Origin: an uncultured Dehalococcoidaceae bacterium
GTDB lineage: Bacteria > Chloroflexota > Dehalococcoidia > Dehalococcoidales > RBG-16-60-22
Length of the DNA: 34,899 nt
Assembly: GCA_964597015.1 (NCBI GenBank)
Contig: CAZQWO010000002.1
Span: forward strand, 3,739-38,637
Reading direction: 5' to 3'
Shown piece after piece: positions 901 to 29,598 of this stretch (positions within the stretch are counted from its first letter, which is position 1; the number at the start of each line of letters is the position of its first letter). The notes under the pieces were generated by a model that ran no database searches, was not told the DNA's origin, and saw only the letters and a list, made by a program, of their open reading frames with translations. Both the position numbers and the translations under genes were made by a program.

Positions 901-929
901 TATAGTAAATGAATCAGGGAGGATTGACC

Positions 930-6288: not shown

Positions 6289-7479
6289 GTGCCGGTATTG
6301 AATGTCAGTGAGTTAAAGTCCAGAGTAATCAATGAGATAGATAATCACATTGATGAGCTTAAAGAGTTGAGTCTGAAGATACACGGTAATCCCGAGATTG
6401 CTTTTCAGGAAGAAAAAGCGGCCGCCTGGCTCACCGACTACCTGCAGGCAAATGGTTTTGCCACGGAAAAGGGTATCTGCGGGCTGACAACGGCATTTCG
6501 GGCGACCTGTGGGAGAGGGAGGCCGGTGATTGCCCTTCTGGCGGAGTATGATGCGCTGCCCAAGCTCGGTCATGCCTGCGGGCACAATATCATTGCCACC
6601 AGCGCCGTTGGCGCCGGGATAGCGGCCAGAGCGGTGGTGGATGAGCTTGGCGGTACGGTGCAGGTAATGGGCACGCCGGCTGAGGAGATGGGCGGTGGCA
6701 AGGTTTATATGATTAAGGGGGGTGCTTTTAAAGGTGTGGATGCGGTTATGATGATACACCCGGCTGGGTTGAACACCGCGACCACCAAATTTCTCGCCCT
6801 CGAAACGCTGGAGGTGGAATTTTTCGGCAAGTCGGCGCATGCCGCCGCCAGGCCTGAAGCGGGCATCAATGCGCTGGAAGCTATGTTAATGTCCTACGCC
6901 GGCATAAATTCCCTGAGGCAGCATATCAGGGACAGTGCCCGCATCCACGGCGTTATTACTGACGGCGGTGAAGCGGCCAATATCGTGCCGGCGCACACCG
7001 CCGGTCATTTCATCGTTCGGGCGGCGGAGGACAGCTACCTGGACGAATTGAAGGAGAGGGTGCTGAATTGCTTTATCGGCGCTGCCACCGCTACCGGGGC
7101 AAAATTGAAATACCGGTGGGGCAAGGTACGCTATGCCACGCTGCGCAATAATTTCACAATGGCGCGCCTGTTCCGGAAGAACCTGCAGTCTCTGGGCAGA
7201 CGGGTTCACCTGGTCGACCCCAGGATAGGTATTGGCAGCAGTGACATCGGCAATGTCAGCCAGGTAGTGCCCAGCATTCATCCGCTCGTCGCCATCGCTT
7301 CCGCCAGGGCGGTAACCCATTCTCCTCAGTTTGCCAGAACGGCTGCCTCTGAAGCCGGGACGCGCGGCCTTACCGATGCCGCTAAGGCACTGGCGATGAC
7401 CGTGGTTGACCTGATGGCTGAGCCGGCGGTGCTGGACATGGTTCAGAAAGAGTTTCAAAAGGGTGATAATTCGGGATAA
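6289..7479 (+). CDS. M20 family metallo-amidohydrolase (AbgB/M20D-like)
   Basis: LGHACGHNIIATSAVGAG metal/active-site block, about 396 aa with a dimerisation insert. The start is uncertain: GTG 6289 abuts GGAG, and TTG 6298 is better spaced. Confidence 0.7.
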   Translation: MPVLNVSELKSRVINEIDNHIDELKELSLKIHGNPEIAFQEEKAAAWLTDYLQANGFATEKGICGLTTAFRATCGRGRPVIALLAEYDALPKLGHACGHNIIATSAVGAGIAARAVVDELGGTVQVMGTPAEEMGGGKVYMIKGGAFKGVDAVMMIHPAGLNTATTKFLALETLEVEFFGKSAHAAARPEAGINALEAMLMSYAGINSLRQHIRDSARIHGVITDGGEAANIVPAHTAGHFIVRAAEDSYLDELKERVLNCFIGAATATGAKLKYRWGKVRYATLRNNFTMARLFRKNLQSLGRRVHLVDPRIGIGSSDIGNVSQVVPSIHPLVAIASARAVTHSPQFARTAASEAGTRGLTDAAKALAMTVVDLMAEPAVLDMVQKEFQKGDNSG

Positions 7480-9844: not shown

Positions 9845-10492
9845 ATGAAGGTTGTCTTTATTGAAGATGTGCCCGGTGTGGCCGAGGCTGGAGAAATCAA
9901 GGAAGTAGCCGATGGCTATGGACGCAATTACCTTATTCCCAGAAAGCTGGCCGTTCTGGCCGATGCCCGGGCAACAGAGATAGTGGAGGCGCAGAAGAAA
10001 AGGAAAGACCGGATTGAGGCGGAAATGGAGGCGGAGATGCGGGAGCTGGCCGGGAAGCTGGAAGGGCTGGAAATAGTCATCAAGGCCAAGGCAGGCGCCA
10101 AGGACAGGCTGTACGGGTCAATCACCAATGCCGATATTGCCGAGGAGCTGAACAAAAGCGCCGGTCTGGAGGTTGATAAGAGAAAAATCGAGCTCGAAAC
10201 ACCTATCCATGAGATAGGCAGCTATGACATACCCATCAGGCTGACCAAGGACATCATTCCCAGGATAAAGCTCAGCGTCGTCGAGGAGGAGGTGGCGGAG
10301 GGAAAGGAGAAGACGGAAGCCAAGCCTAAGAAGGAGAAAAAGGCAAGGAAGAAGGTAGCAAAGACGGAGAAGGCGACGAAAGAAACGAAGGTGGAGAAGG
10401 CGACGGAAGAGGTGGAGACTGAGGCACAAGAGGAAAAAGTAGTGGCAGAAGCGCAGGCTGAGGTCGAAGAGGAGACGGAGCAGAGTGGTTAA
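9845..10492 (+). CDS. rplI: 50S ribosomal protein L9 with a roughly 70-aa Lys/Glu-rich C-terminal extension
   Basis: MKVVFIEDVPGVAEAGEIKEVADGYGRNYLIPRKLA is the canonical L9 N-domain. It is 215 aa, against about 150 aa for typical L9. Confidence 0.9.
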   Translation: MKVVFIEDVPGVAEAGEIKEVADGYGRNYLIPRKLAVLADARATEIVEAQKKRKDRIEAEMEAEMRELAGKLEGLEIVIKAKAGAKDRLYGSITNADIAEELNKSAGLEVDKRKIELETPIHEIGSYDIPIRLTKDIIPRIKLSVVEEEVAEGKEKTEAKPKKEKKARKKVAKTEKATKETKVEKATEEVETEAQEEKVVAEAQAEVEEETEQSG

Positions 10493-11870
10493 CGATAGAT
10501 TGCCTCCGCATGACCTTGATGCCGAGGAAGCCATCATCGGTTCGCTGCTTATCGATGGCACGGCGATATATAAAATCGCCACCCATCTGAGTAAGACGGA
10601 CTTCTACCATGAGCGCAACCAGTGGCTGTTCGAGGCTTGCCAGGCGCTCTATGAGCGCAACGAGGCGATAAACCAGATTACCGTGGCGCAGGAACTGGCC
10701 AGGAGGGACAAGCTGGAAGCAGCCGGTGGCGCCGCATTCCTGAGCCACCTGATTTCCGTGTGCCCGACGCCGCTGGACATCGAGCACTACGCCCAGATTG
10801 TCAACCGGCTCTCCATTATGCGTGGACTTATCGGCGCTGCCGACCAGATTTCCCGTGTTGGCTACGAAGCCGGTCCGGACGTTGACACCAGTCTCAGCCG
10901 GGCGGAGGACATCCTGTTCCGGCTGCGACACGGACACGGTGAGCGCGATTTCGTTCACATCCGTCAGGTGCTGGACCAGTATTTTGAAGCGGTGCCGCCT
11001 GAGGAAGAAGGCCGCGCTCGTGAGCAGATACCCTACGTGCTTTCCAACTTCGTCGGCCTCGATGAATTCCTGGGCGGTTTTCAGCGCTCCGACCTGATTA
11101 TCATTGCCGGCCGACCCAGTATGGGAAAAACGAGTTTGGGTCTCAGTATTGCCCGTAATGTAGCCGTGGAACAAAAAGCTTGTGTGGCGCTGTTCAGCCT
11201 GGAAATGGCCAGGGACTCGGTCATTCTGCGCTTTCTGGCCAGTGAATCCGGGGTGAACTCACGGCGGGTCAGGTTCGGACTGCATACCGAGGACGAGGAG
11301 AGGCGTATCATGGAGGCCACCGGCGTCCTTTCCGAGTCAGCCATATTCATTGATGACTCTCCGCAGTTGCGGGTGGTGGAAATGCGCAGTAAGGCCCGCC
11401 GACTCCACTTCGAGCGGGGACTGGACCTGATTATCGTTGATTACCTGCAGTTGATGGGGGGCGAGGGGCGGGGTGAAAACCGCGTTCAGGAAATCAGTTA
11501 CATCTCGCGCTCTCTCAAAGCGCTTTCCCGCGAGCTGAATGTGCCGGTGATTGCCGTATCACAGCTCAGCCGGGCGGTGGAATGGCGCGCATCACACATT
11601 CCGCAGCTGGCTGACCTCAGGGAAAGCGGCAGCATTGAGCAGGATGCCGATGTGGTGATATTCATTTACCGCGATGAATATTATCACAACGAGGAGGAGT
11701 GGCAGCTGCAGCATCCCGACCGTGAGTACCCGCGGGAAGAGGCTGATATTATGATAGCCAAAAATAGAAATGGTCCCACCGGCCAGATTAAGCTGCGTTT
11801 TCGGCACAACCTGGCCACGTTTTATAATTATGAATACCCGGTAAGTAGCGAAGAGCCGACGTTGCTATGA
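10485..11870 (+). CDS. dnaB: Replicative DNA helicase DnaB
   Basis: PPHDLDAEEAIIGSLL N-terminus, Walker A GRPSMGKTS, IIVDYLQLM Walker B and SQLSRAVE motifs. GTG start overlaps the rplI stop by 8 nt. Confidence 0.92.
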   Translation: MVNDRLPPHDLDAEEAIIGSLLIDGTAIYKIATHLSKTDFYHERNQWLFEACQALYERNEAINQITVAQELARRDKLEAAGGAAFLSHLISVCPTPLDIEHYAQIVNRLSIMRGLIGAADQISRVGYEAGPDVDTSLSRAEDILFRLRHGHGERDFVHIRQVLDQYFEAVPPEEEGRAREQIPYVLSNFVGLDEFLGGFQRSDLIIIAGRPSMGKTSLGLSIARNVAVEQKACVALFSLEMARDSVILRFLASESGVNSRRVRFGLHTEDEERRIMEATGVLSESAIFIDDSPQLRVVEMRSKARRLHFERGLDLIIVDYLQLMGGEGRGENRVQEISYISRSLKALSRELNVPVIAVSQLSRAVEWRASHIPQLADLRESGSIEQDADVVIFIYRDEYYHNEEEWQLQHPDREYPREEADIMIAKNRNGPTGQIKLRFRHNLATFYNYEYPVSSEEPTLL

Positions 11871-12577
11871 GTCAGTTCAGCGGATTTCCAGCCAGGATGG
11901 AATTCACCCCCATCCCCAATTATTTCCTCAATGTCCTGCTGCCCGAAATTGATGATATCCAGGAATTGAGAACGACCCTGCATGTGCTGGCGGCGTTATA
12001 CCGGAAAAAGGGCCAGCCACGCTTTGTCAGCTATCACGAATTGCTGGGGAATGACGGGCTGATAAAAAGCCTGAAAGAAGGTGGTGAAGCGCCGGAGGAA
12101 ACGCTGCGCCGGGCATTGCAGACGGCCAGCCAGCGGGGAATTTTTATCCATATCGTTCTGGACAGCGACGGGTCGACCGAGGACATCTACCTGCTCAATA
12201 CCGAATCGGACCGCAAAGCCGCCGCCAGAATCGAAAGCGGCGAAATTAAATTGAGCGGACTCATAGCCATTGCGAAGCCAAGCGCTGAACCTGAAGAACT
12301 GCCGGATATATTCACCCTGTATGAACAGAATATCGGCATGCTGACGCCGATAATTGCCGACGAACTAAAAGAGGCGGAAAAGCTGTACCCTGAGAGCTGG
12401 CTCAGGGACGCCATCAAAGAAGCGGTGGCGCTCAACAAGCGGAACATCCGCTATATTATGCGTATTCTGGAACGCTGGTCGACCGAAGGGAAGACTGATG
12501 GAACATATCAGCGAGTTTCTAAGACAGACCCGGATAAATACATCAAGGGAAAATACGGACACATGGTCCGACGTTGA
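11867..12577 (+). CDS. DnaD-domain replication initiation/primosome protein
   Basis: C-terminal YEQNIGMLTPIIADELKEAEKLYPESWLRDAIKEAVALNKRNIRYIMRILERW matches the DnaD/DnaB_2 repeat. ATGA overlap with the dnaB stop. Confidence 0.7.
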   Translation: MSQFSGFPARMEFTPIPNYFLNVLLPEIDDIQELRTTLHVLAALYRKKGQPRFVSYHELLGNDGLIKSLKEGGEAPEETLRRALQTASQRGIFIHIVLDSDGSTEDIYLLNTESDRKAAARIESGEIKLSGLIAIAKPSAEPEELPDIFTLYEQNIGMLTPIIADELKEAEKLYPESWLRDAIKEAVALNKRNIRYIMRILERWSTEGKTDGTYQRVSKTDPDKYIKGKYGHMVRR

Positions 12578-13904
12578 GGAAGCCCCTTCGCCGAGCGCCA
12601 GCTGTCCCATCTGCAAGGGTGCCGGGGTGGTGCACCCGCGTTTGCCTTCCGGGAAGCCGGATTACAGCCGGGTGGTGCCCTGTCGGTGCCTGAAAAAGGG
12701 GCTTGATGACGAGCGCCTGGCACGCCTGAGACGCTACAGCAACCTGGGAACACTCGCCCGGTTTACCTTCGAGAACCTGGAGCCAAGGGGGAGGGGTGGG
12801 AACCCGAAGAGTCAGGAGCAGTACCAGCGTGTCTATGAGGCGGCTCAGGCATTCGCCGCCGACCCGAAAGGGTGGCTTGTCCTCATCGGCCCCAGCGGCA
12901 GCGGCAAGACGCACCTGGCGGCAGGCATTGCCAACGAGCGCATCAGAGGCGGTTTTCCCGCTTTCTATATAACGGCTCCCGACCTTCTCGACCACCTGCG
13001 GGCCGCCTTCAGCCCCGGCAGCGAGATACCCTATGATGAGTTCTTCGACCAGGTCAGAAACGCCCCGCTGTTGATTCTGGACGATTTTGGCGTTCAGACC
13101 AGCACGCCATGGGCCCGGGAGAAGCTCGACCAGCTGCTGACCTATCGCTTCAACAGCCAACTGCCCACGGTTATCGTGCCCATCGTGCCGCTGGCACAGA
13201 TTGACGAGAGGCTACAGACCCGCCTGGCCGACCCTGAAATGAGCACGGTCTGCATGATTGAAGAGAAGCAACCTGTATCTCTGGACTATGCTTGGGGGTC
13301 GGAATTCGAGCTGCAGAAAGGCATGACTTTTGAAAACTTTGACCGGAGACGGGTTAACCTGCCGCTAGAAAAACAAGAAAACTTGGAAGAGGCTTATCGG
13401 ATTGCTTTTGAATTTGCGAAATCACCTGAAGACTGGATAATGTTTATGGGTGAGTCTGGATGTGGTAAAACACACCTGGCCGCGGCCATCGTAAACTATC
13501 GTTATCAGGCCAACAAGCCGGCACTATTTGTCGTTGTATCTGATTTCCTTGACCACCTGCGGTCGACATTCAGTCCGGACAGCAAGATATCTTATGACCA
13601 GTTGTTTGAAAAAGTAAAGACGGCGCCATTGCTTGTTTTAGATGACTTTGGTGAACAGACAACAACTCACTGGGTCAAGGAGAAACTATATCAGGTTATA
13701 AACTACCGCTATAATGCTAAGCTGCCAACAGTGATAACTACACGATATTCACCTGACGAGATAATAGAAAATCTGGAAAGTTCCATTAGCTCACGGTTGG
13801 TTGATAATAAAATCAGCAATGCCTTCAATATCACCGTGCCGGATTATCGGACTGATGCCGCCAGCCAGAGGAAGACTGCCCGCCGCGAGCGGAGAGGGCG
13901 CTAA
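12498..13904 (+). CDS. Helicase-loader-like protein: Zn-ribbon plus two tandem DnaC/DnaI/IstB-type AAA+ modules
   Basis: CPICKGAG..CRC near the N-terminus. Module 1 has GPSGSGKTH, LLILDDFG and QTRL. Module 2 has GESGCGKTH, LLVLDDFG, PTVITT and SSRL. This is the only canonical start, and it lies 80 nt inside the preceding gene. Confidence 0.8.
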   Translation: MEHISEFLRQTRINTSRENTDTWSDVEEAPSPSASCPICKGAGVVHPRLPSGKPDYSRVVPCRCLKKGLDDERLARLRRYSNLGTLARFTFENLEPRGRGGNPKSQEQYQRVYEAAQAFAADPKGWLVLIGPSGSGKTHLAAGIANERIRGGFPAFYITAPDLLDHLRAAFSPGSEIPYDEFFDQVRNAPLLILDDFGVQTSTPWAREKLDQLLTYRFNSQLPTVIVPIVPLAQIDERLQTRLADPEMSTVCMIEEKQPVSLDYAWGSEFELQKGMTFENFDRRRVNLPLEKQENLEEAYRIAFEFAKSPEDWIMFMGESGCGKTHLAAAIVNYRYQANKPALFVVVSDFLDHLRSTFSPDSKISYDQLFEKVKTAPLLVLDDFGEQTTTHWVKEKLYQVINYRYNAKLPTVITTRYSPDEIIENLESSISSRLVDNKISNAFNITVPDYRTDAASQRKTARRERRGR

Positions 13905-13972: not shown

Positions 13973-15421
13973 TTAGCGTTTTAAACCATCGGCTACGGAG
14001 CGTCCCAGCTCCAGGTCAGCCTTGGACAGGTTCTCAATTACCCGCTGCTGGACTGGCTTCTTGATGTGCATAAGGTCCGCAATGAGATTATCTACCAGGT
14101 GCTCCTTATCCATCTTGCTTAAGGAACGATATTTCTCTCCAGCCTGTGCGAAATCGTTCGTTTGGCTGATTTTCTGCCGGGCCACTTCTCCCTCAAGCCA
14201 GTATTTGCGGGGGGTGCCTTCCTCAGGAGCCTCTTCTGGCGCATCACTAACCAGGCTACTGGGCTCATAGTTGACCGGGCCACTGAACTCCCCAATCTGC
14301 ATGGCTCCGTCGCGCTGGTTGTTGCTAGCCTCAACGGGTGGGCGATTGATGGGAAGTTGCAGGTAATTCGGCCCTAGCCGGTGGCGCTGAGTATCAGCGT
14401 AGGAGAATGTTCGACCCTGAAGAAGCTTGTCGGCCGAAAAATCAATTCCTGGAACGATACTGGCGGGGCAGAAAGCCGCCTGCTCCACTTCGGCAAAGAA
14501 ATTTTCCGGATTGCGGTTGAGCACCATTTTGCCGACCGCCATAAGTGGTAGCTTGTCCTCAGGCCACGTCTTGGTGGGGTCTAGTGGGTCGAAGTCTTGT
14601 TTAAGCTCATCGGCGATATCCATCAACTGCACGTTTAGCTCGTACTCAACCTCTTGGCCACTGGCGATGGCATCATGAAGGTCACGGGTAAGATAATCAG
14701 GGTCGACACCCGCCAGGCGTGTTGCTTCATGCCGGTCGAGGTTCTGCACACCCAGTTTTGGCTTCCAGTGGTATTTCACATACATCGCTTTTCCCTCAGC
14801 ATTCACCCACACATAGGTGTTGACGCCAAAGCCCTCTTGCATTCGGTAACTTTTTGGCGTGCCGCGGTCAGAAAAGAGCCAGATAATCATATGCGTTGAT
14901 TCTGGCGTCAGGGATATGAAGTCCCAAAAACGGTTATGCGCGGAAGACGCTGATGGTATGTTGTTATCCGGTGCACCCTTGAAGGCGTGAACCATATCGG
15001 GAAACTTTATCGCGTCCCGGATGAAAAATACCGGTAGATTGTTCCCAACCAGGTCGTAGTTGCCCTCCTCGGTGTAGAACTTAACGGCGAAACCCCGGGG
15101 GTCCCGTACCGTATCGGCGGAGCCCCGCCCCCCTGTTACCGTGGAAAACCGTAAAAATACCGGGGTCTTTTTCGCCGGGTCTTGAAGGAATTTTGCCTTA
15201 GTATAAGGTTTCATGCTCTTGTAAACCTGAAAGTAGCCATGTGCACCCGCTCCCTTGGCATGGACAACTCTTTCGGGGATACGCTCCCTGTCAAAGTGGG
15301 CCATCTTTTCCACGAACTGGACATCCTGTAACAGGACTGGACCACGCTCGCCAACGGTCAATGAGTTCTGGTTGTCAGTGACCGGCACACCTTGATTTGT
15401 AGTAAGATATTTACCTTTCAT
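13973..15421 (-). CDS. katA: Monofunctional heme catalase (small-subunit type)
   Basis: FDRERIPERVVHAKGAGAHGYF (distal His), RFSTV.G, FDLTK-like and RLGPNY (proximal Tyr region). 482 aa. AAGGAGGG Shine-Dalgarno sequence. Confidence 0.92.
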   Translation of the reverse strand: MKGKYLTTNQGVPVTDNQNSLTVGERGPVLLQDVQFVEKMAHFDRERIPERVVHAKGAGAHGYFQVYKSMKPYTKAKFLQDPAKKTPVFLRFSTVTGGRGSADTVRDPRGFAVKFYTEEGNYDLVGNNLPVFFIRDAIKFPDMVHAFKGAPDNNIPSASSAHNRFWDFISLTPESTHMIIWLFSDRGTPKSYRMQEGFGVNTYVWVNAEGKAMYVKYHWKPKLGVQNLDRHEATRLAGVDPDYLTRDLHDAIASGQEVEYELNVQLMDIADELKQDFDPLDPTKTWPEDKLPLMAVGKMVLNRNPENFFAEVEQAAFCPASIVPGIDFSADKLLQGRTFSYADTQRHRLGPNYLQLPINRPPVEASNNQRDGAMQIGEFSGPVNYEPSSLVSDAPEEAPEEGTPRKYWLEGEVARQKISQTNDFAQAGEKYRSLSKMDKEHLVDNLIADLMHIKKPVQQRVIENLSKADLELGRSVADGLKR

Positions 15422-15471
15422 GGTGCCCTCCTTTTCTTATTTTATAGGGCTGTTTTACACGTTAGACTTTG

Positions 15472-15499
15472 ATTTTACTACCTTTTAATATATTGTCAA
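15472..15499 (-). promoter_or_regulatory. Candidate catalase promoter TTGACA-N16-TAAAAT
   Basis: The minus strand reads TTGACAATATATTAAAAGGTAGTAAAAT, about 50 nt upstream of the catalase ATG. Confidence 0.45.
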
Positions 15500-15664
15500 T
15501 ACCCGCCGATGCGTATATATTTAAGTCTTTAAAAAATTGGCAGTAGAAACCTTTAGGTGAATAAGTTGGGCTCTTGATTGGTATGTAGGAATGGGCAATA
15601 AATTAGCAGATGAATTGTCATGGTAGGCTTGAACAGAAAGGTCGCCAAAATTTAAGGCTAAAAG

Positions 15665-15710
15665 TGGTACCCCTGTCACGACCCGAACGCACGTCAGGCA
15701 GTTCAGGAAT
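15665..15710 (-). pseudogene. Degenerate 3' half of a tRNA-Arg(CCU)-like gene ending in CCA
   Basis: The minus strand reads ATTCCTGAACTGCCTGACGTGCGTTCGGGTCGTGACAGGGGTACCA. This aligns block-wise with the anticodon loop, T-arm and acceptor 3' strand of the intact tRNA at 16753..16825. No matching 5' half lies upstream. Confidence 0.5.
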
Positions 15711-15775
15711 GTGTCAGGTGATGTCCTGTTGTTCACATCCCGTTAGTAAAACGCTAGCGGAAGAGATTGGCCTAT

Positions 15776-16216
15776 TTACTCGTAGGCTTTAACGCCAACC
15801 AGCGCTACTTCCTCGTCCTCGTCTTGATGGCGGCCGCTGGTGCCTACGGCACCAACCGTATAGCCTTCCTTTGTCCTGATAAGGTTGCCCCCGGGGATAA
15901 GCGTCAATCTGTCAGGCTCACAGAAATCGGTGGCTTTAAGTCCCATCTTTGCCAGCATGTCGCGGGTGGTTCTGGTGTCCCGTTTGAACGCTATGGCGCT
16001 CCAGGCTTTATATTCAGCCATACGCCGGTTAACCAGAGAGGCCTGAGGCACTCTGGCAAAGCACATAAGAACACCACACTCGTCCACTACGGCCAGGGCC
16101 ATACCCCGGCCTGGCTTGGTCACCGTCGTGTACTCCACCATGGCGTCAACAATCTTACGAGCTTGCTCCAGGGTCAAACTGCCCGGGCGTACCGGTTCAC
16201 TTGATATCTGGCTCAT
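15776..16216 (-). CDS. GlcG/HbpS-like (DUF336) heme-binding family protein
   Basis: LTLEQARKIVDA....A..G..MA.AVVDE.G.L......P.A........KA.SA..F...T and GG.LI...G..VGAVG.SG match the DUF336 pattern. The ATG at 16216 lies 8 nt after GGAGG; the ORF-track GTG at 16225 sits inside the Shine-Dalgarno sequence. Confidence 0.75.
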   Translation of the reverse strand: MSQISSEPVRPGSLTLEQARKIVDAMVEYTTVTKPGRGMALAVVDECGVLMCFARVPQASLVNRRMAEYKAWSAIAFKRDTRTTRDMLAKMGLKATDFCEPDRLTLIPGGNLIRTKEGYTVGAVGTSGRHQDEDEEVALVGVKAYE

Positions 16217-16221
16217 TTTTA

Positions 16222-16284
16222 ACACCTCCTCGGACTAATATTACTACCATTTCAATATTTAAGTATAGTACCCCTGGCGCGACT
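16222..16284 (-). repeat. Direct repeat copy A: 16 nt of tRNA-Arg 3' end plus 47-nt flank/leader
   Basis: 59/63 identical to 16706..16768 in the same orientation. 16269..16284 equals tRNA positions 58-73. Confidence 0.9.
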
Positions 16285-16311
16285 TTCATCTGGAGATATC
16301 TGGTTCAGAAG

Positions 16312-16701
16312 CTAATCGCTGACTTCCAGCAGCTCAATCAATATATCTTCGGGGCTGACAAGGAAGGCTATTTTAGTGGTGGGGCTGATTGATTTTATCT
16401 CCTGCACAATCTTTATCCCTTTCGCCTTCATCTCGGCCACGGCTTCTTCAATGTTGTTGGTTCTGAGTCCAAAGTGCTCAAGCCCACAGCCATCGGGTAG
16501 TGTATTTGGTACCAGTGGCTCGGGTCTTGGCTGAGTCGCCTTGATTGACACCCCGTCAAGCGCCACTGACACAAGAGTGCGCCCATCGGGGAGTTCAAGG
16601 AAGCCATCCTGTTTGGCACCAAAGATTTTTTTGTAGAAATCGGCTGTAGTAACGGGGTCCTTGCTGACCAGATGAACGTGGTCAAACCAGTATTTAGGCA
16701 T
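16312..16701 (-). CDS. VOC (glyoxalase) family protein
   Basis: 129 aa. FDHVHLVSKDPVTTADFYKKIFGA N-terminal VOC motif and EHFGL second-half metal-ligand-like block. GGAGGTGT leader. Confidence 0.75.
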   Translation of the reverse strand: MPKYWFDHVHLVSKDPVTTADFYKKIFGAKQDGFLELPDGRTLVSVALDGVSIKATQPRPEPLVPNTLPDGCGLEHFGLRTNNIEEAVAEMKAKGIKIVQEIKSISPTTKIAFLVSPEDILIELLEVSD

Positions 16702-16705
16702 TCAG

Positions 16706-16768
16706 ACACCTCCTCGGATTACTATTACTACCATTTTAATATTTAAGTAAAGTACCCCTGGCGCGACT
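16706..16768 (-). repeat. Direct repeat copy B (overlaps the 3' end of the intact tRNA-Arg gene)
   Basis: See copy A. The offset between the copies is 484 nt. Confidence 0.9.
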
Positions 16769-16825
16769 CGAACGCGCGCACGCGGTTTAGGAAACCGCTG
16801 CTCTGTCCACCTGAGCTACAGGGGC
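16753..16825 (-). tRNA. tRNA-Arg (anticodon CCU), 73 nt, CCA not encoded
   Basis: Hand-folded cloverleaf of GCCCCTGTAGCTCAGGTGGACAGAGCAGCGGTTTCCTAAACCGCGTGCGCGCGTTCGAGTCGCGCCAGGGGTA. D stem GCTC/GAGC, anticodon stem GCGGT/ACCGC with loop TTCCTAA, T stem GCGCG/CGCGC with TTCGAGT. The acceptor stem has a G1-U72 wobble. Confidence 0.85.
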
Positions 16826-16876
16826 ACATCAAGGCATCACTATTTTAGCGGTAAACCTGGTTGCTGGCAAGTTGAC

Positions 16877-16906
16877 TTGACTTCTTCAGAGTCTGCGCCA
16901 TACAAT
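16877..16906 (+). promoter_or_regulatory. Candidate promoter TTGACT-N18-TACAAT for the Ldh_2 gene
   Basis: Overlapping TTGACTTGACT at 16872..16882 and TACAAT at 16901..16906. AAGGAGG Shine-Dalgarno sequence follows. Confidence 0.4.
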
Positions 16907-16944
16907 CAAAAATGGCTCACCCCATTTTGTTTTAAGGAGGAATT

Positions 16945-18054
16945 ATGGCAGATAGCGATGTTAAGGTAGTGGCGTGGCAACCGCTGAAGGAGTTTACCAA
17001 GGAAGTATTCACCCGGGCCGGCATGCCGCCGGAAGATGCTGAAGCCGAGGCGGGAGCGCTGATATGGGCCAACCTGCGGGCCGTTGACTCTCACGGCGTG
17101 CTGCGTATTCCCTGGTATCTGGACAACATTGAAAAGGGCGTAATGAACCCTAAGCCCAATATAAAACTCATTAAAGAGACTCCGGCGACGATTTTTCTCG
17201 ATGCCGACCGGGCTCTAGGTCCGGTGGTCACCATCAGGGTGGTGGATATGGTGGTGGCAAAGGCGAAGGAGGCGGGCATTGGCTGGGCGCTGATACGCAA
17301 CCTGACCCATCAGGGCGCTCTGGGGTATTATTCGCAGATGATAGCGGAGAAAGGAATGGCGGGGATTGTTTTTGTCTGCAATCCACCCAATATGGCGCCA
17401 TTTGGCGCCAGGGTTGCCGGTGTGCACAACAGCCCGATTGCCATTTCCGTGCCGGCAAAGCGGCATCGCCCGCTCAATCTGGACATGGCGACCAGCGTGG
17501 TCGCTGGCGGCAAGCTCTGGCTGGCCGTGGATAAGAATATACCCATACCGGAAGGCTGGGCACTTGATAAAGAAGGAAAGCCGACCACTGACCCCAAGAA
17601 CGTTGGCGCTCTGCTGCCTTTTGGCGGCCCCAAGGGCTCGGGTCTGTCGATGATGTTCGAGTGTCTTTCCAGTATTATGGCCGGAAATCCGCAGCTGGAG
17701 CCGGCGCTATTCGGTCGCGAAACCGATAAGCCCGATGAAGGCAAGCAGAAGCAGGCCATAGGTGAGCGATTAGCCTACGTACCAAAACATATTCAGAACA
17801 GCGTGGTGGCGGCGATAGATATCAGCACTTTTACCGACCTGGAGAGCTATAAAGAGCATATTGACAACCTTATCGATGGTATAAAAGCGTTGCCCAAGGC
17901 GGAGGGTTTCAGCGAGATTTTTGTCCCCGGTGAACCGGAGGAAAGAACTTTTACCGAGCGTTCCAAGAACGGGATTCCTCTGCCTCAGGGAACCGTCCGC
18001 AACCTGATGGCAGTTTCGGAGAAATTGGGCGTAAAATTACCGCCCGGCCTGTGA
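16945..18054 (+). CDS. Ldh_2 family (malate/L-lactate/sulfolactate-type) NAD(P)H oxidoreductase
   Basis: About 369 aa. LRAVDSHGVLRIPWYL, ALGYYS, FGGPKGSGLSMMFE blocks are characteristic of the type-2 Ldh/Mdh family. Confidence 0.7.
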   Translation: MADSDVKVVAWQPLKEFTKEVFTRAGMPPEDAEAEAGALIWANLRAVDSHGVLRIPWYLDNIEKGVMNPKPNIKLIKETPATIFLDADRALGPVVTIRVVDMVVAKAKEAGIGWALIRNLTHQGALGYYSQMIAEKGMAGIVFVCNPPNMAPFGARVAGVHNSPIAISVPAKRHRPLNLDMATSVVAGGKLWLAVDKNIPIPEGWALDKEGKPTTDPKNVGALLPFGGPKGSGLSMMFECLSSIMAGNPQLEPALFGRETDKPDEGKQKQAIGERLAYVPKHIQNSVVAAIDISTFTDLESYKEHIDNLIDGIKALPKAEGFSEIFVPGEPEERTFTERSKNGIPLPQGTVRNLMAVSEKLGVKLPPGL

Positions 18055-18556: not shown

Positions 18557-19903
18557 CTATGTTTCAGGCGCAGGACCTATCAGTTCAGGCCACAGTTCCT
18601 CAATCGTCGGCTTGAGTCCGGTCATAACGTCGTCAACGGCCCTGACCGCGGTGTCGATTTCCTTCCGGGTCATAGGAGTTGACATAACATATAGACCTCT
18701 TGACGCTGAGAAGCAACCCCTTTCCAGCATTGCCAGATAGAACAGGTGCAGCAGGTCTTTATTGGCTTCCCTGGCCGCTTTGCCGTTTATCACCGGCTGG
18801 TCATGGAAATGGATGTTCTGCAGCGAGCCTATTCCGGTAACCTGCCCCTTGACGTTAAGTCGCTTGAAGATAGCCCGGACACCGTCGGCAAAAGACTCGC
18901 CGAGCTTGTTTATGTACTTTATGACGTCGGTGTTAAGTTGCTCCATGGTGGCCACGCCGGCAGTGGCGGTCATGGGATTGGCGTTCAGCGTACCGGCATG
19001 GTAGACCTTTCTTATCTCAGGGGAGAACATCTGCATCAGGTCTTCACGTCCGCCAACGGCACCAACCGGATAGCCGCCGCCGATGATTTTAGCCATGGTG
19101 GTGAGGTCGGGCTTGATTTTATAGATACTCTGGACGCCTCCCCAGGCCAGCCTCAGGCTGATTACCTCATCGAGGATGAACATGATGCCGTTATCTTGTG
19201 TGACCTTGCGCAGGAACTCAAGATAGCCGTCGCGTGGGGGTATCAAGCCAGAGGCACCCATCGCCCCCTCAACGATGACCGCAGCCAGCCTGTCTTTGTT
19301 CTCCGCAATGGCTTTCGCTGCGGCTTCCTTGTCATTGTAGGGAACGATGATGGACTCGGCCCTGTTGCCCTTCGATATGCCGGTGGCGTCGGAGGGAAAG
19401 ACTATGGGGTCGTAGCTCCCGTGATAGCAGCCGTCTGTTTTCAGGAGCATGTCCTTGCCGGTAAGGCCCCGGGCCAGGCGTATGGCCATCATCACCGCCT
19501 CCGTCCCAGAGTTGCCAAACCTGACCTTGTCCACGGAGTCGACCATGTTGCAGACGAGTTCTGCCCAGCGTACCACGGTGGGAATGAGTGCTCCAAATGC
19601 GGTGCCCTTCGCTGCCTGTTCCCTCACCGCCGCCACCACTTTGGGATTGGCGTGACCGAGAATCATGGTGGTGTAGCAGTTGTGGAAGTCAATGTACTCG
19701 TTGCCGTCAACGTCGGTGAACCGGCAGCCTTCCGCTTTATCTATCCAGAAGGGATAGGGGTCAAACCAGATTGAGGTGCGGGTATCACCGCCCGGCATAT
19801 ATTGGCGCGCTTTGGCCATCGTTTCACTTGATTTTTTCGTCCTCCGACGATAGGTATCTTCATATTTTTTGGTGACTTCAGCCACCAACTTTTCTCGGGA
19901 CAT
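18557..19903 (-). CDS. Class-III PLP aminotransferase (GSA-aminomutase/omega-transaminase-like)
   Basis: YMPGGDTR, DVDGNEYIDFH....TMILGHANP, DEVISLRL and the PLP-Lys region. The ATG at 19903 lies behind AGGAGAGAG; the ORF-track start at 19975 is less likely. Confidence 0.8.
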   Translation of the reverse strand: MSREKLVAEVTKKYEDTYRRRTKKSSETMAKARQYMPGGDTRTSIWFDPYPFWIDKAEGCRFTDVDGNEYIDFHNCYTTMILGHANPKVVAAVREQAAKGTAFGALIPTVVRWAELVCNMVDSVDKVRFGNSGTEAVMMAIRLARGLTGKDMLLKTDGCYHGSYDPIVFPSDATGISKGNRAESIIVPYNDKEAAAKAIAENKDRLAAVIVEGAMGASGLIPPRDGYLEFLRKVTQDNGIMFILDEVISLRLAWGGVQSIYKIKPDLTTMAKIIGGGYPVGAVGGREDLMQMFSPEIRKVYHAGTLNANPMTATAGVATMEQLNTDVIKYINKLGESFADGVRAIFKRLNVKGQVTGIGSLQNIHFHDQPVINGKAAREANKDLLHLFYLAMLERGCFSASRGLYVMSTPMTRKEIDTAVRAVDDVMTGLKPTIEELWPELIGPAPET

Positions 19904-20144: not shown

Positions 20145-21128
20145 ATGGCTGATTTTGAAATCATTGACGCTCATATTCACCTGGCAAGGACCATGGAGGA
20201 GGAGAGCAACTACTGGCTTTTCCCGGGGCGCCGGGCATGTGACCGGTATGGTACGCCGGAGAGGGCCGTCGAGTATATGGAGCAGGAAGGCATCTCCAAG
20301 ATGGTCATCATGACCCTGATTGGCCGCCAGTACCGCGGCCCCCTGCTGGAAAAACCGAAGTTAGCCAAGCTGCCCGATAAGCAGCGACGGGAAGCGGAGA
20401 AGAAAATCGGCGAGCAGGTCGGCCCTAAAATACGCGAGGTCAATGAGTGGAGCTGCGGAGTAGCCAAGCGTTTCCCGCAGCTTGTCTCTTTCAGCTGCCT
20501 GGCGCCGGAGCTGGGCGGTGCCGAAGGCATGGTCAAAGAAGTGGAGGTAAGAGTAAGCCAGGGGGCAAAGGGAATCAAGCTTCATCCCGGCATGTTCTCC
20601 TTCTTCCCCGATGATGAGGTCATGTTCCCGGCGTACGAGAAATGCCAGGAGCTGGGACTGCCGGTGCTGGCTGACTCGGGGACCTGGCCGACGCCGCATG
20701 TCCTGGTGGAATACCCTTCGCCGGTATTAATGGCAGCGCAGTCGGCGGTGATTGATTACGCTGAGCCCAAGAACTGGGCCAAGGCGGCCGCGACGTTCCC
20801 GCGCCTTAAAATTGTCCTCGCCCACCTGGGCTCGGCCTGGTGGGACGAGAGGGTGGAGCTGGCGCAGAAGTACCCCAACGTTTATTTTGATACCTCTCAG
20901 GGGTTCTCGGCACCGGACCGTATTCCTTACAGTACGTATAGGGGTCTGGCGGAAGCAGACGTGCCGCGCATCTTCCGAAAAATCGGCATAGACCGGATAC
21001 TTTTCGGCACCGATTTCCCGGCGCTGGCACCGCAGCCGCAGCTGGAGCAGATAATACGCCTGCCACTGACCGACGAAGAAAAGCGCAAAATTCTGGCGGA
21101 GAACGCCAAGCGCGTTTACAACATTTAA
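20145..21128 (+). CDS. Amidohydrolase_2-type metal-dependent hydrolase (paralog P2, 327 aa)
   Basis: IDAHIHL, KLHPG, LAHLG, FDTS, FGTD. Gap-free alignment with P1 and P3. Confidence 0.8.
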   Translation: MADFEIIDAHIHLARTMEEESNYWLFPGRRACDRYGTPERAVEYMEQEGISKMVIMTLIGRQYRGPLLEKPKLAKLPDKQRREAEKKIGEQVGPKIREVNEWSCGVAKRFPQLVSFSCLAPELGGAEGMVKEVEVRVSQGAKGIKLHPGMFSFFPDDEVMFPAYEKCQELGLPVLADSGTWPTPHVLVEYPSPVLMAAQSAVIDYAEPKNWAKAAATFPRLKIVLAHLGSAWWDERVELAQKYPNVYFDTSQGFSAPDRIPYSTYRGLAEADVPRIFRKIGIDRILFGTDFPALAPQPQLEQIIRLPLTDEEKRKILAENAKRVYNI

Positions 21129-21198: not shown

Positions 21199-22023
21199 CT
21201 ACAGTCCCAGCAGCGACTTTATCTCATCAATGGCCGGTTTCAGTTTTTCGTAGTTGTTGTCGATAACATAGCCCAGCATGAAGAGCTGGTAGCCTTCCTT
21301 GGCCCACTTGGCCAGGCCCTTGGGGGCAAAGCCGCCGATGCCCGCCACCTTGCCCATCTTTTTACTGATATGGCCAATCTCCCGCAGTCTTTCCTCCACT
21401 ATCGGCGCGCTCACTGTCTCAGAGCGCAGCATTTTGGGCGGTGTCCCATAGATATCCATCACCAGGTCGTTGGTGCCCACAATGGTGCCGGTAACACCCT
21501 CAAGGCTGAGTATCCGGTGCAGGTTGCCGATGCCCTCCACGCTTTCGGTCATTGGAAAGAGCACGACGTTATCGTTCACGTATTGGCAGATGTCCGAGAG
21601 CGGCATCTCCGCCAGGTTCTGAGAATCCATTAGATACGGGCTCATGCCGACCCCCGAGCCGCGGTGGCCGATGGGTGAAAAGTAGCACTGGTCGATGGCG
21701 AATATCGTTTCCTCGACCGTGTTGACACAGGGCAACATCATCCCGTTGATGCCGGCGTCCATGTAGCACCGGAAGTGGCCGTCTTTGTCCTCGGGCCTCA
21801 TCAGGATGGGCATCTCCAGCTTCCGCGAGACGCGAATATACTCAAATATCGTTTCTTTATCTACCAGGCTGTGCTCGGTCTCCATCATGATAAAATCGAA
21901 GCCGAAATCTTTAAGTGCCTGTACCGTTTTCTCCGGGTCATTCCTCGGCCCGATGGTCTGCCCGAAGACTATCTTGCCTTTCTGCAGTTCCTTTTTGAAG
22001 TTGAGCGTAACGTTCAGTGCCAT
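21199..22023 (-). CDS. HpcH/HpaI-family 2-keto-3-deoxy-acid aldolase
   Basis: FGFDFIMMETEHS, MRPEDKD and divalent-metal Glu/Asp positions. The ATG at 22023 lies 7 nt after an AAGGAGG that overlaps the fdhA stop codon. Confidence 0.75.
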   Translation of the reverse strand: MALNVTLNFKKELQKGKIVFGQTIGPRNDPEKTVQALKDFGFDFIMMETEHSLVDKETIFEYIRVSRKLEMPILMRPEDKDGHFRCYMDAGINGMMLPCVNTVEETIFAIDQCYFSPIGHRGSGVGMSPYLMDSQNLAEMPLSDICQYVNDNVVLFPMTESVEGIGNLHRILSLEGVTGTIVGTNDLVMDIYGTPPKMLRSETVSAPIVEERLREIGHISKKMGKVAGIGGFAPKGLAKWAKEGYQLFMLGYVIDNNYEKLKPAIDEIKSLLGL

Positions 22024-22033
22024 ATAAACCTCC

Positions 22034-29497: not shown

Positions 29498-29598
29498 TTT
29501 GGTGATACATCTCCTTTGCAGTATTCTTCTCTGGCATAACGTGGACACAGCCTGCAGTGAAAAACCGCAAACGACGTGGTGTTAAACTGACTTGAAAC

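What the first reader, a model, noticed from the sequence alone, without database searches (positions are those of the whole stretch)
16222..16825. 63-nt direct repeat carrying the last 16 nt of tRNA-Arg(CCU) brackets a one-gene VOC cassette
Copy A (16222..16284) and copy B (16706..16768) are 59/63 identical, in the same orientation, and offset by 484 nt. In tRNA sense, the first 16 nt of each copy read AGTCGCGCCAGGGGTA, which is positions 58-73 of the intact tRNA-Arg(CCU) gene at 16753..16825. The remaining 47 nt are the 3' flank of the tRNA. That flank ends in GGAGGTGT, 4-5 nt before the ATG of two unrelated genes: VOC at 16701 and the GlcG-like gene at 16216. A directly repeated tRNA 3' end is the scar left by site-specific integration into a tRNA gene (attL/attR). 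Here the bracketed unit is a single 129-aa gene, and no integrase or recombinase is visible anywhere in the window. The repeat also supplies the Shine-Dalgarno sequence and a possible TTACTT-N17-TAATAG promoter to whatever gene lies behind it. That arrangement resembles an integron-like or tandem-island cassette site more than a classical prophage or ICE.
Basis: partly seen in the sequence, partly recalled or inferred. Interest (0 to 1): 0.7.

Follow-up and report, generated by a model that had tools for sequence, protein, structure and literature searches.

The report
Integration scars behind a tRNA-Arg gene
The 63-nt repeat is real: it is a leftover piece of a tRNA-Arg gene plus a copied gene leader, marking the seam between two one-gene insertions at a spot where uncultured Dehalococcoidia repeatedly gain and lose small genes. 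This is a familiar kind of integration hotspot in an unusually miniature form.

Summary
tRNA-Arg(CCU) lies at 16753-16825 (-). The 63-nt direct repeat (16222-16284 and 16706-16768) is 59/63 identical, and its first 16 nt are tRNA positions 58-73. A third, degenerate tRNA 3' half (15668-15711) lies between the HbpS-like gene and catalase.

The host is an uncultured Dehalococcoidia bacterium. In relatives, the interval from tRNA-Arg to the dnaC-like gene holds different one-gene units:
- VOC only.
- CN-hydrolase, VOC and a racemase-like gene, each followed by a tRNA-Arg 3' fragment.
- VOC and catalase.

Two relatives carry a tyrosine integrase abutting this tRNA. One of them has a 6.7-kb island flanked by a perfect 38-nt repeat of tRNA positions 1-38. 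The tRNA is therefore a live integration hotspot, and the tRNA-derived repeat is an att-type scar.

The VOC unit itself is old: every relative with this tRNA locus has it. The 47-nt non-tRNA part is VOC's own leader. It was copied in front of HbpS and replaces HbpS's usual ~110-nt leader at a GAGGTGT microhomology.

The window has no integrase. No integron-type integrase and no attC-like fold was found. The best fit is a decayed tandem array of tRNA-anchored islets. An active integron-like cassette platform is a minority possibility.

The parts
16753..16825 (-). Intact tRNA-Arg(CCU) gene with no encoded CCA. It anchors the array and is the primary attachment site.
   Evidence: ARAGORN; Rfam 60.4 bits.
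16842..16870 (-). Sigma-70-like promoter match (TTGCCA-17-TAAAAT) 17 nt upstream of the tRNA. It may drive a tRNA-VOC-HbpS transcript (inferred).
   Evidence: Consensus scan, 10/12 matches; no terminator-like site in 15350-17000.
16706..16768 (-). Repeat copy B: tRNA positions 58-73 (16753-16768) plus the 47-nt VOC leader (16706-16752), ending in the SD motif GGAGGTGT.
   Evidence: Leader homologues lie upstream of VOC in L010, L013, L048, L049 and L051.
16312..16701 (-). VOC/glyoxalase-family gene (129 aa), the old one-gene unit present in every relative that has this tRNA locus.
   Evidence: Pfam; tblastn and homologue contexts; identity matrix 74-87%.
16285..16311 (-). Decayed left part of tRNA fragment 2 (roughly tRNA positions 32-57), starting right after the VOC stop codon. 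It is orthologous to the sequence after VOC in L048, L010, L013 and L012.
   Evidence: Alignments.
16222..16284 (-). Repeat copy A: a perfect copy of tRNA positions 58-73 (16269-16284) plus a 43/47 copy of the VOC leader (16222-16268), now serving as the HbpS leader.
   Evidence: The junction with HbpS-native sequence lies at GAGGTGT.
15776..16216 (-). HbpS-like/GlcG (DUF336) gene, 146 aa. This is the lineage-specific unit. Homologues of 82-92% identity sit in at least 6 other genomic contexts.
   Evidence: Pfam.
15668..15711 (-). Fragment 3: a degenerate tRNA-Arg 3' half (anticodon loop to position 73, about 77% identical). It is followed by the ancestral downstream flank shared with L012, L010 and L049.
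   Evidence: (D2).
13973..15667 (-). Ancestral flank (15422-15667, with the catalase promoter match at 15472-15499) and the catalase gene (13973-15421). Catalase is present in some relatives (L012, L015) and absent in others.
   Evidence: Pfam. No further tRNA fragment lies between catalase and dnaC-like.
12498..13904 (+). dnaC-like double AAA+ loader gene, convergent with catalase. It is the conserved distal boundary of the variable interval.
   Evidence: Pfam; conserved in 28 related loci; also the boundary in L051.
16945..18054 (+). Ldh_2 gene, the conserved proximal boundary on the 5' side of the tRNA. In L010 a 6.7-kb integrase island lies between it and the tRNA.

Best explanation
The locus is a decayed tandem array of one-gene islets anchored on tRNA-Arg(CCU) in an uncultured Dehalococcoidia genome.

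Shown:
- In tRNA sense the array reads: tRNA | VOC | fragment 2 | HbpS-like | fragment 3 | ancestral flank and catalase | dnaC-like (convergent).
- The fragments are displaced 3' parts of the tRNA gene. This is the type of scar left when a tyrosine integrase recombines an element into a tRNA gene and the element restores the gene.
- Relatives carry such integrases at this very tRNA.
- Relatives carry other one-gene units at the same place.

Inferred history:
1. VOC entered long ago, with its own 47-nt leader next to the att core. It is now fixed.
2. In the window's lineage, shared at least in part with L048, a second unit became established behind the old VOC scar.
3. The tRNA end plus the VOC leader (63 nt) came to precede HbpS. 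This happened through recombination between the tRNA end and the scar, followed by a join at the 7-nt Shine-Dalgarno (SD) microhomology GAGGTGT, which removed HbpS's normal ~110-nt leader.
4. The two copies were then homogenised, or the duplication is simply recent. They are 94% alike, whereas the orthologous leaders of the window and L048 are only about 70% alike.

Inferred consequence: VOC and HbpS share one leader and SD. They are probably transcribed from the tRNA promoter, because no terminator-like site and no good internal promoter was found. Nothing in the window can move these units today.
For: Sequence facts:
- tRNA and repeat verified.
- Third fragment found.
- Taxonomy and 28 syntenic loci obtained.

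Hotspot:
- L010 has a tyrosine integrase whose ORF runs into the tRNA, plus a perfect 38-nt direct repeat of tRNA positions 1-38 flanking a 6.7-kb island.
- L049 has a 75%-identical integrase abutting tRNA-Arg, followed by VOC and a fragment.

Variable content of the same tRNA-to-dnaC interval:
- L013: VOC.
- L010: CN-hydrolase and VOC.
- L012: VOC and catalase.
- L051: CN-hydrolase | fragment | VOC | fragment | racemase-like | fragment | dnaC-like.

Age of the VOC unit:
- VOC plus fragment is present in all of these loci. The left part of the fragment shares derived states across the window, L048, L010 and L013.
- L012's fragment is followed by the same flank as window fragment 3, so the window differs from L012 by about 600 nt carrying HbpS.

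Origin of the 47-nt part:
- It is VOC's leader in all relatives.
- HbpS homologues elsewhere have a different leader ending TGAGGTGTTAAAAATG.

Expression signals: promoter and terminator scan.

Precedents:
- Islander definition of restored target plus displaced fragment (PMC4383910).
- Tandem ssrA islands in Dehalococcoides, including units without integration modules (PMC3146451).
- Successive integrations and scattered partial tRNAs in Prochlorococcus islands (bioRxiv 10.1101/2020.12.28.424599).
Against: - No integrase lies in the 34.9-kb window, and no excision junction or circular form was seen. Reads are not available.
- The integrases found in relatives sit on the 5' side and restore the 5' half of the tRNA. 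The scars in the window are 3' halves, so a different element type or orientation must have made them.
- The order of events is not resolved. Three routes remain possible: HbpS inserting into the old scar; loss of HbpS in L010, L012 and L013 by scar-to-scar deletion; or duplication of the VOC unit followed by gene replacement.
- Units of exactly one gene with tight borders are not what random decay of large islands predicts.
- In L051, fragments B and C share an 18-nt stretch that is not tRNA-like, so an already decayed scar was itself duplicated.
- HbpS also moves without tRNA fragments (L039, L041, L044, L047), so general illegitimate recombination contributes.
Confidence: 0.7

Rival explanations
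1. Active integron-like platform. One-gene circles that carry a mimic of the tRNA-Arg 3' half plus a short leader are captured and shuffled at tRNA-Arg(CCU), or at earlier scars, by a tyrosine integrase encoded next to the tRNA or elsewhere in the genome. The 63-nt repeat would then be the shared recombination-site and leader module of two such cassettes.
For: - L051 has three consecutive one-gene units, each followed by a tRNA-Arg 3' fragment.
- Fragments B and C of L051 share CTTTTAATCAGGGTGTCG, which is not tRNA sequence, so a scar rather than the tRNA was duplicated.
- L046 has three direct copies of the T-loop-to-3'-end of another tRNA bracketing single genes, one of them HbpS; two copies are identical over 25 nt. 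L045 shows the same HbpS unit with different neighbours.
- In L010 and L049 the integrase lies immediately 5' of the tRNA, followed by the array, a layout like intI-attI-cassettes.
- The VOC stop codon abuts or overlaps the tRNA-like segment in all lineages.
- Many contigs break exactly at the tRNA end or at the scars, and most VOC contigs are about 1 kb long.
Against: - The VOC unit is fixed in all relatives, and VOC diverges roughly in step with host genes.
- The scars decay differently in each lineage, so no site is conserved.
- No attC-like fold: z-scores +0.67, -1.83, -0.02 and +1.2.
- The integrases are generic tyrosine recombinases, far below the integron-integrase cut-off, and none is in the window.
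- The L010 integrase belongs to a 6.7-kb phage-like island that duplicates the 5' half of the tRNA.
- HbpS normally has a different leader and also relocates without any tRNA fragment.
- No matching elements were found in the viral collection.
Confidence: 0.17
2. Purely local duplication or gene conversion, with no site-specific recombination in the origin of the 63-nt repeat. An old 16-nt scar and the shared SD motif served as short homologies for template switching or unequal crossing-over, which copied the tRNA end plus VOC leader in front of a neighbouring HbpS gene.
For: - The two copies are 94% identical, while orthologous leaders of the window and L048 are about 70% identical and L048's own two copies about 65%. 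This points to recent copying or conversion within the lineage.
- The right boundary lies exactly in the GAGGTGT microhomology.
- The left boundary lies at a pre-existing scar conserved in relatives.
Against: - L048 already has a VOC-leader-like sequence after its scar, so the arrangement predates the split.
- Fragment 3 is an independent tRNA 3' half that this model does not explain.
- Double template switches on 16-nt and 7-nt homologies are rare events.
- This model supplements the scar model rather than replacing it: it still needs the scars to have been made by integration.
Confidence: 0.1
3. The 63-mer is a dispersed promoter or leader repeat of this genome, or a chance or assembly artefact.
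For: It supplies the SD to two unrelated genes.
Against: - Only two copies exist in 34.9 kb.
- The chance expectation is about 3e-21.
- The same arrangement was assembled independently in at least four other samples: L002, L003 and L004 in full, L006 and L007 in part.
- A metagenome pattern scan found only one unrelated chance hit.
- No promoter consensus lies inside the repeat.
Confidence: 0.03

Closest known systems
tRNA/tmRNA-gene genomic islands as defined by Islander (restored target gene plus displaced fragment marks the island ends; PMC4383910)
   Same: - An intact tRNA at one end.
- Direct-repeat 3' fragments in the same orientation.
- Fragment starts fall at the anticodon loop or T-loop.
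- Tyrosine integrases occur at the same tRNA in relatives.
- Tandem arrangement.
   Different: - The window has no integrase.
- Units are single genes of 0.5-1 kb rather than islands of several kb or more.
- The repeat extends 47 nt beyond the tRNA, because a gene leader was copied as well.
- The oldest unit (VOC) is fixed across species.
Tandem ssrA genomic islands of Dehalococcoides mccartyi (McMurdie et al. 2011, PMC3146451)
   Same: - Same bacterial class.
- Tandem islands downstream of a single t(m)RNA gene, delimited by short direct repeats of its 3' end.
- T-loop insertion.
- Some units lack an integration module and were proposed to be cis-mobilizable or fixed.
   Different: - The target is tRNA-Arg(CCU), not ssrA.
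- The associated integrases are tyrosine recombinases, not the serine recombinase DsiB.
- The ssrA islands carry multi-gene rdhA cargo. Here the units are single small genes, including stress-related ones.
Tycheposon-shaped genomic islands of Prochlorococcus (Hackl et al., bioRxiv 10.1101/2020.12.28.424599)
   Same: - A streamlined genome.
- Elements with a tyrosine recombinase, sometimes with replication genes, integrate at specific tRNAs.
- Later arrivals push earlier ones further in.
- Partial tRNAs and element remnants are scattered in the island.
- The L010 island has an integrase and a replisome-organiser domain protein.
   Different: - No homology to tycheposon proteins was tested.
- The window holds only remnants.
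- The units are one gene each.
- The L010 element restores the 5' half of the tRNA.
Integron (intI-attI-cassette/attC array)
   Same: - An array of promoter-proximal single-gene units, each followed by a short recombination-site-like sequence.
- In two relatives a tyrosine recombinase lies next to the primary site.
- The upstream site supplies the expression signals.
   Different: - No IntI-type integrase.
- No attC hairpin.
- The sites are tRNA-derived and decaying.
- The VOC unit is immobile across species.

Membership tests
tRNA-anchored integrative island / att scar (Islander-type) | Intact target tRNA gene at one end | tested here: met
   ARAGORN and Rfam.
tRNA-anchored integrative island / att scar (Islander-type) | Displaced fragment of the same tRNA in direct orientation at the other end | tested here: met
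   Fragment 2 matches 16/16. Fragment 3 is about 77% identical over 42 nt; 0 of 5000 random windows scored as well.
tRNA-anchored integrative island / att scar (Islander-type) | Fragment begins at a canonical crossover sublocation (anticodon loop or T-loop) | tested here: met
   The perfect block of fragment 2 starts in the T-loop (position 58), with weaker similarity back to the anticodon loop. Fragment 3 and the fragments in L049 and L051 start in the anticodon loop. The L010 repeat ends at position 38.
tRNA-anchored integrative island / att scar (Islander-type) | Integrase gene inside the unit | tested here: not met
   No recombinase in the window. Integrases occur at this tRNA only in relatives L010 and L049, on the 5' side.
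tRNA-anchored integrative island / att scar (Islander-type) | Presence/absence polymorphism of the bracketed unit among related genomes | tested here: inconclusive
   Met for HbpS, CN-hydrolase, the racemase-like gene and catalase. Not met for VOC, the unit bracketed by the 63-nt repeat, which is present in all relatives with this locus.
tRNA-anchored integrative island / att scar (Islander-type) | Excision products (empty site, circular junction) | not testable with these tools
   No read data. The only indirect sign is contigs that start or end at the tRNA end or at scars.
Integron | IntI-type integrase adjacent to the primary site | tested here: not met
   None in the window. The L010 and L049 integrases score 51.8 and 46.8 bits on TIGR02249 against a cut-off of 265.
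Integron | attC sites: imperfect palindromes that fold as single strands | tested here: not met
   Single-strand DNA folds of the unit ends are no better than shuffles: z +0.67, -1.83, -0.02, +1.2.
Integron | Array of mostly promoterless single-gene cassettes read from a common upstream promoter | tested here: inconclusive
   Single-gene units are present. Only the tRNA promoter match lies upstream and no terminators were found. No expression data are available.
Cis-mobilizable element (att-flanked unit lacking recombination and transfer genes) | Flanked by att-derived repeats and lacking an integrase | tested here: met
Cis-mobilizable element (att-flanked unit lacking recombination and transfer genes) | Still mobilised in trans or by accretion with a neighbouring element | not testable with these tools
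   Requires reads or experiments. The decay of the scars in several lineages argues against mobility for VOC.

The most novel reading that the evidence does not exclude
Dehalococcoidia may possess a tRNA-anchored, integron-like gene-capture platform. In this reading, a tyrosine integrase that abuts tRNA-Arg(CCU), and possibly other tRNAs as in L046, inserts and shuffles single-gene circles whose recombination site mimics the 3' half of the tRNA. The tRNA promoter and a short shared leader would then express whatever is captured. The window would be one array of that system, observed without its integrase.
Probability: 0.17. Interest if true: 0.85.

Novelty: new member of a known kind. Interest (0 to 1): 0.45.

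Why it matters
It identifies tRNA-Arg(CCU), next to the dnaB/dnaD/dnaC-like replication genes, as a gene-turnover hotspot in uncultured, genome-streamlined Dehalococcoidia.

At this hotspot, oxidative-stress and detoxification genes (catalase, an HbpS-like haem protein, a VOC enzyme, a CN-hydrolase) are swapped in and out one gene at a time. This extends the tandem-island picture known from Dehalococcoides ssrA and from Prochlorococcus to a new tRNA, a new integrase type and a miniature unit size.

It also shows how an integration scar plus a leader can be reused to express a newly placed gene. If the single-gene units prove to be actively mobilised, this would be a new kind of cassette system. 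The loci listed here give a concrete place to test that.

Tried and rejected
1. **Metagenome scan.** The scan for the leader pattern CTTAAATATTNAAATGGTAGTAATA returned a single hit, inside an AT-rich serine-recombinase gene of an unrelated organism (L008). It has no tRNA and no synteny, so it is a chance match.
2. **Viral-collection scans.** Scans for the tRNA-Arg 3' half and for the L010 integrase found nothing.
3. **Proposed promoter.** The TTACTT-N17-TAATAG promoter inside the repeat was not returned by the consensus scan. Only a weak 9/12 site overlaps copy A.
4. **CRISPR-DR47 match.** The Rfam match at 15415-15440 scores 20.7 bits against a cut-off of 39 and coincides with the catalase ribosome-binding site. 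It is spurious.
5. **Extra CCAGGGGTA hits in L013.** Those at 16562 and 17147 lie inside an ABC-transporter permease gene and are chance matches.
6. **Fourth fragment.** No tRNA fragment lies between catalase and the dnaC-like gene, only a hairpin-like GC-rich inverted repeat.
7. **Racemase-like gene of L051.** I tested whether it is a relocated orthologue of the window's Asp/Glu racemase gene (2107-2820). It is only 24% identical, so it is not.
8. **Integron membership.** Tested and not met.
9. **Exact-protein look-up of Ldh_2.** It found only the source contig.
Full report
**1. Observation**

The sequence facts hold.
- ARAGORN finds one tRNA in the window, tRNA-Arg(cct), at 16752-16825 on the minus strand. 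Rfam's tRNA model matches 16753-16825 at 60.4 bits against a gathering score of 29.
- The repeat finder reports a 63-nt direct repeat at 16222-16284 and 16706-16768, 59/63 identical and spaced 484 nt. A 59/63 match has an expectation of about 3e-21 over all position pairs of the window.
- Read in tRNA sense, both copies begin AGTCGCGCCAGGGGTA, which is tRNA positions 58-73.
- Both copies end in GGAGGTGT, 4 nt before the VOC ATG and 5 nt before the HbpS-like ATG.
- Pfam confirms the genes: catalase (13973-15421, -), HbpS-like/GlcG (15776-16216, -), VOC (16312-16701, -), Ldh_2 (16945-18054, +), and a dnaC-like double AAA+ protein (12498-13904, +).
- Pfam scans of the window's other genes found only metabolic and housekeeping proteins and no recombinase (gene tables).

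**2.

A third tRNA-derived segment lies at 15668-15711 (-), between HbpS and catalase. It matches the tRNA from the anticodon loop to position 73 at about 77% identity. Its alignment score is 22, against a null of -9.6 +/- 4.0, and 0 of 5000 random windows scored as well.

In tRNA sense the locus therefore reads: tRNA | VOC | fragment 2 | HbpS | fragment 3 | 246-nt flank and catalase | dnaC-like (convergent).

In copy A, weak tRNA similarity continues upstream of the perfect 16-mer to the VOC stop codon. No further fragment lies between catalase and dnaC-like.

**3. Source and relatives**

The window comes from JGI metagenome contig Ga0212124_10000397. The same arrangement was assembled independently in at least four other samples (L002-L004 in full, L006 and L007 in part).

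A genome-collection search with the dnaC-like protein returned 28 syntenic loci, all uncultured Dehalococcoidia, Dehalococcoidales or Chloroflexi. What lies downstream of dnaC-like differs between species:

| Locus | Content in tRNA sense |
|---|---|
| L013 | tRNA-Arg, 28 nt, VOC, 16-nt fragment (AGCCGTGCCAGGGGTA), a DUF3795-like gene, dnaC-like |
| L010 | integrase island, tRNA-Arg, CN-hydrolase, VOC, perfect 16-nt fragment, a DUF3795-like gene, dnaC-like |
| L012 | VOC, fragment, then the same flank that follows window fragment 3, catalase, dnaC-like |
| L051 | tRNA, CN-hydrolase, fragment A, VOC, fragment B, racemase-like gene, fragment C, dnaC-like |
| L049/L050 | integrase, tRNA-Arg, VOC, well-preserved anticodon-loop-to-3' fragment, ancestral-type flank |
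| L048 | tRNA, leader, VOC, fragment 2, then the first 17 nt of a second leader-like sequence, where the contig stops; same Ldh_2-side synteny as the window |

It concerns HbpS, CN-hydrolase, the racemase-like gene and catalase. It does not concern VOC.

**4. The tRNA is a live integration site**

In L010 a 403-aa tyrosine integrase (Pfam Phage_integrase, 1.9e-25) reads into the 5' end of the tRNA. A perfect 38-nt direct repeat, equal to tRNA positions 1-38, lies 6742 nt away next to Ldh_2. It flanks an island that includes a phage replisome-organiser domain protein. The Ldh_2-proximal copy carries the upstream flank seen in the window.

L049 has a 75%-identical integrase in the same position.

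These elements recombine in the anticodon loop and restore the 5' half of the tRNA. The scars in the window are 3' halves, the commoner polarity.

Together this supports reading the fragments as att-type scars in the Islander sense: a restored target plus a displaced fragment (PMC4383910).

**5. Age of the VOC unit**

VOC plus its downstream fragment occurs in every relative that shows this region. VOC proteins are 74-87% identical to the window's.

The sequence between the VOC stop codon and the 16-nt core shares derived, non-tRNA states across the window, L048, L010 and L013, for example CAGRTTAR in place of the T arm. The VOC integration is therefore ancient and the unit is fixed.

The fragments have decayed in lineage-specific ways. 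The left half is lost in the window, L010 and L013. The right half is lost in L051 fragment B. L049 is the best preserved. That pattern argues against selection on a recombination site.

**6. Origin of the 47-nt part**

The leader that follows the tRNA in front of VOC is recognisable in L048, L049, L013 and L051. It is also recognisable in L010, where CN-hydrolase has been inserted between the tRNA and the leader. It is VOC's native leader.

HbpS homologues of 82-92% identity sit in at least six other contexts:
- between C_GCAxxG and AP-endonuclease genes;
- behind a radical-SAM gene;
- next to HpcH, in a contig that also holds Ldh_2 and tRNA-Arg;
- inside an array of fragments of another tRNA;
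- behind a catalase promoter remnant next to dnaC-like;
- in L045, with yet other neighbours.

In five of these contexts HbpS carries a conserved leader of about 110 nt, with a mini-ORF (MVE-stop) and a hairpin, ending TGAGGTGTTAAAAATG or a close variant of it. The radical-SAM context (L041-L043) has a different upstream sequence.

In the window that leader is absent. Similarity to VOC's leader runs up to GAGGTGT, and similarity to HbpS-native sequence starts at GAGGTGT. The right end of the 63-nt repeat is therefore a recombination joint in a 7-nt Shine-Dalgarno (SD) microhomology, not a cassette boundary.

**7. How recent is the 63-nt identity?**

| Comparison | Identity |
|---|---|
| Window copy A against window copy B | 94% |
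| Orthologous VOC leaders, window against L048 | about 70% |
| L048's own tRNA-side copy against its scar-side copy, over the 34 nt visible | about 65% |

The arrangement of scar followed by a leader-like sequence predates the split from L048. The copies in the window were homogenised or re-copied later.

**8. Mechanism**

Shown: tRNA-derived scars; an integrase-bearing island at the same tRNA in relatives; variable one-gene content at this interval; an old VOC unit; a leader swap at a microhomology.

Inferred:
- VOC entered by integrase-mediated recombination at the tRNA.
- Later events placed HbpS behind the old scar with a copy of the tRNA end plus the VOC leader. Possible routes are recombination between the tRNA end and the scar, either on sister or donor DNA or as a small circle, followed by a microhomology join.
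- The exact order remains open: insertion into the scar; loss of HbpS from L010, L012 and L013 by scar-to-scar deletion; or duplication of the VOC unit followed by gene replacement.
- For expression, the only good promoter matches are upstream of the tRNA (TTGCCA-17-TAAAAT) and of catalase (TTGACA-16-TAAAAT). No terminator-like site lies between 15350 and 17000. Co-transcription of tRNA, VOC and HbpS is therefore plausible but untested.

**9. The integron-like reading**

Several observations keep it alive:
- L051 has three one-gene units in a row.
- L051 fragments B and C share an 18-nt stretch that is not tRNA sequence, so a decayed scar was itself duplicated.
- L046 has three direct copies of the T-loop-to-3'-end of another tRNA bracketing single genes. 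One is HbpS, and two copies are identical over 25 nt.
- L045 shows the same HbpS unit with other neighbours.
- The integrase-tRNA-array layout occurs in L010 and L049.
- The VOC stop codon abuts the tRNA-like segment everywhere.
- Many contigs break at the tRNA end or at scars, and most VOC-bearing contigs are about 1 kb.

Against it:
- VOC is fixed and the scars decay.
- The unit ends do not fold like attC.
- The integrases are generic tyrosine recombinases, scoring 52 and 47 bits against a cut-off of 265 for the integron-integrase model.
- The L010 integrase belongs to a conventional island.
- HbpS also relocates without tRNA fragments.

I give this reading about 0.17.

**10. Comparison with known systems**

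The closest are:
- Islander-type tRNA islands (PMC4383910).
- The tandem ssrA islands of Dehalococcoides. These show T-loop insertion, 20-bp repeats, and some units without integration modules that were proposed to be cis-mobilizable or fixed (PMC3146451).
- Prochlorococcus islands shaped by tycheposons, where later arrivals push earlier ones inward and partial tRNAs remain (bioRxiv 10.1101/2020.12.28.424599).

The present case differs in four ways: the target (tRNA-Arg CCU), the integrase type, the one-gene unit size, and the leader copied together with the scar.

**11. Verdict**

The claims that VOC is the mobile cassette and that the 47-nt flank is a cassette or promoter module are not. This is a new member of a known kind, of moderate interest, with a minority but testable possibility of an integron-like capture system.

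Noticed in passing
L010 13204-13241 and 19946-19983; integrase at L010 13232-14443 (-): A 6.7-kb island with a tyrosine integrase and a replisome-organiser domain protein is integrated in the anticodon loop of tRNA-Arg(CCU). It restores the 5' half of the tRNA (perfect 38-nt repeat of positions 1-38), and the integrase ORF ends inside the tRNA. An 18-nt motif, GCGTTAATTTGGCGTTAA, recurs near both island ends (13288-13305 and 19822-19839) and may be an arm-type binding site.
   Followed up: partly
L046 66-90, 696-720, 1223-1247 (minus-strand sense); L045 655-674: Three direct copies of the T-loop-to-3'-end of a different tRNA (TTCGAATCCAACCCCCGCTA, with CCA in two copies) bracket single-gene units: HbpS with its native leader, and a 96-aa secreted-looking protein. 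L045 has the same HbpS unit with different neighbours and one truncated fragment. The intact tRNA was not on these short contigs.
   Followed up: partly
L044 ~980-1099, L045 ~670-786, L046 ~90-197, L039 ~6880-7000, L047 ~940-1052: HbpS homologues in five other genomic contexts share a ~110-nt leader: a strong SD, a three-codon mini-ORF (ATG GTT GAA TAG, or a variant of it in L039/L047) and a GGGTCAG...CTGACCC hairpin. It may be a regulatory leader and is missing in the window.
   Followed up: no
L047 772-1496: In this relative HbpS, with its native leader, sits behind a catalase promoter remnant and a degenerate catalase 5' end, next to dnaC-like. HbpS has in effect replaced the catalase coding sequence. 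In L002 and L006 the catalase gene is called as two overlapping ORFs, which could be a frameshift or an assembly error.
   Followed up: partly
window 10485-13904 (+): The replication operon reads dnaB, then a DnaD/DnaB_2-domain protein, then an unusual double AAA+ loader (IstB_IS21 plus Bac_DnaA ATPase domains, 424-468 aa). It is conserved in 28 Dehalococcoidia loci and forms the fixed edge of the variable interval.
   Followed up: no
window 909-1382 (+), 27527-28555 (-); 3942-4925, 20145-21128, 31823-32806; 21199-22047, 28598-29548: The window holds two further VOC-family genes, one of them a 342-aa double-domain form. It also holds three Amidohydro_2 genes and two HpcH/HpaI aldolase genes, so there is local paralogy among small-molecule catabolic genes around the hotspot.
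   Followed up: no
T arm of tRNA-Arg(CCU) in the window, L010 and L051 against L013 and L048 against L044 and L049: Three T-arm versions occur among close relatives: GCGCG/CGCGC, GTGAG/CTCAC and CCGGG/CCCGG. The 5' half of the tRNA is nearly invariant. This fits repeated replacement of the tRNA 3' half by integrating elements, or compensatory evolution.
   Followed up: no
L006 and L007 position 1; L003 position 1; L044 end; L048 end; L051 start: Independent assemblies break exactly at the tRNA 3' end, in the T-loop, or a few bases into the copied leader. L006 and L007 both start at the same base, 6 nt into copy A's leader. This suggests population heterogeneity or repeat-induced graph branching at the scars.
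   Followed up: partly
L013 14800-18880: A glycine-betaine-type ABC transporter cluster of about 4 kb is inserted between Ldh_2 and the aminotransferase gene, relative to the window. This is another indel in the neighbourhood. Function was read from the sequence only; no domain scan was run.
   Followed up: no
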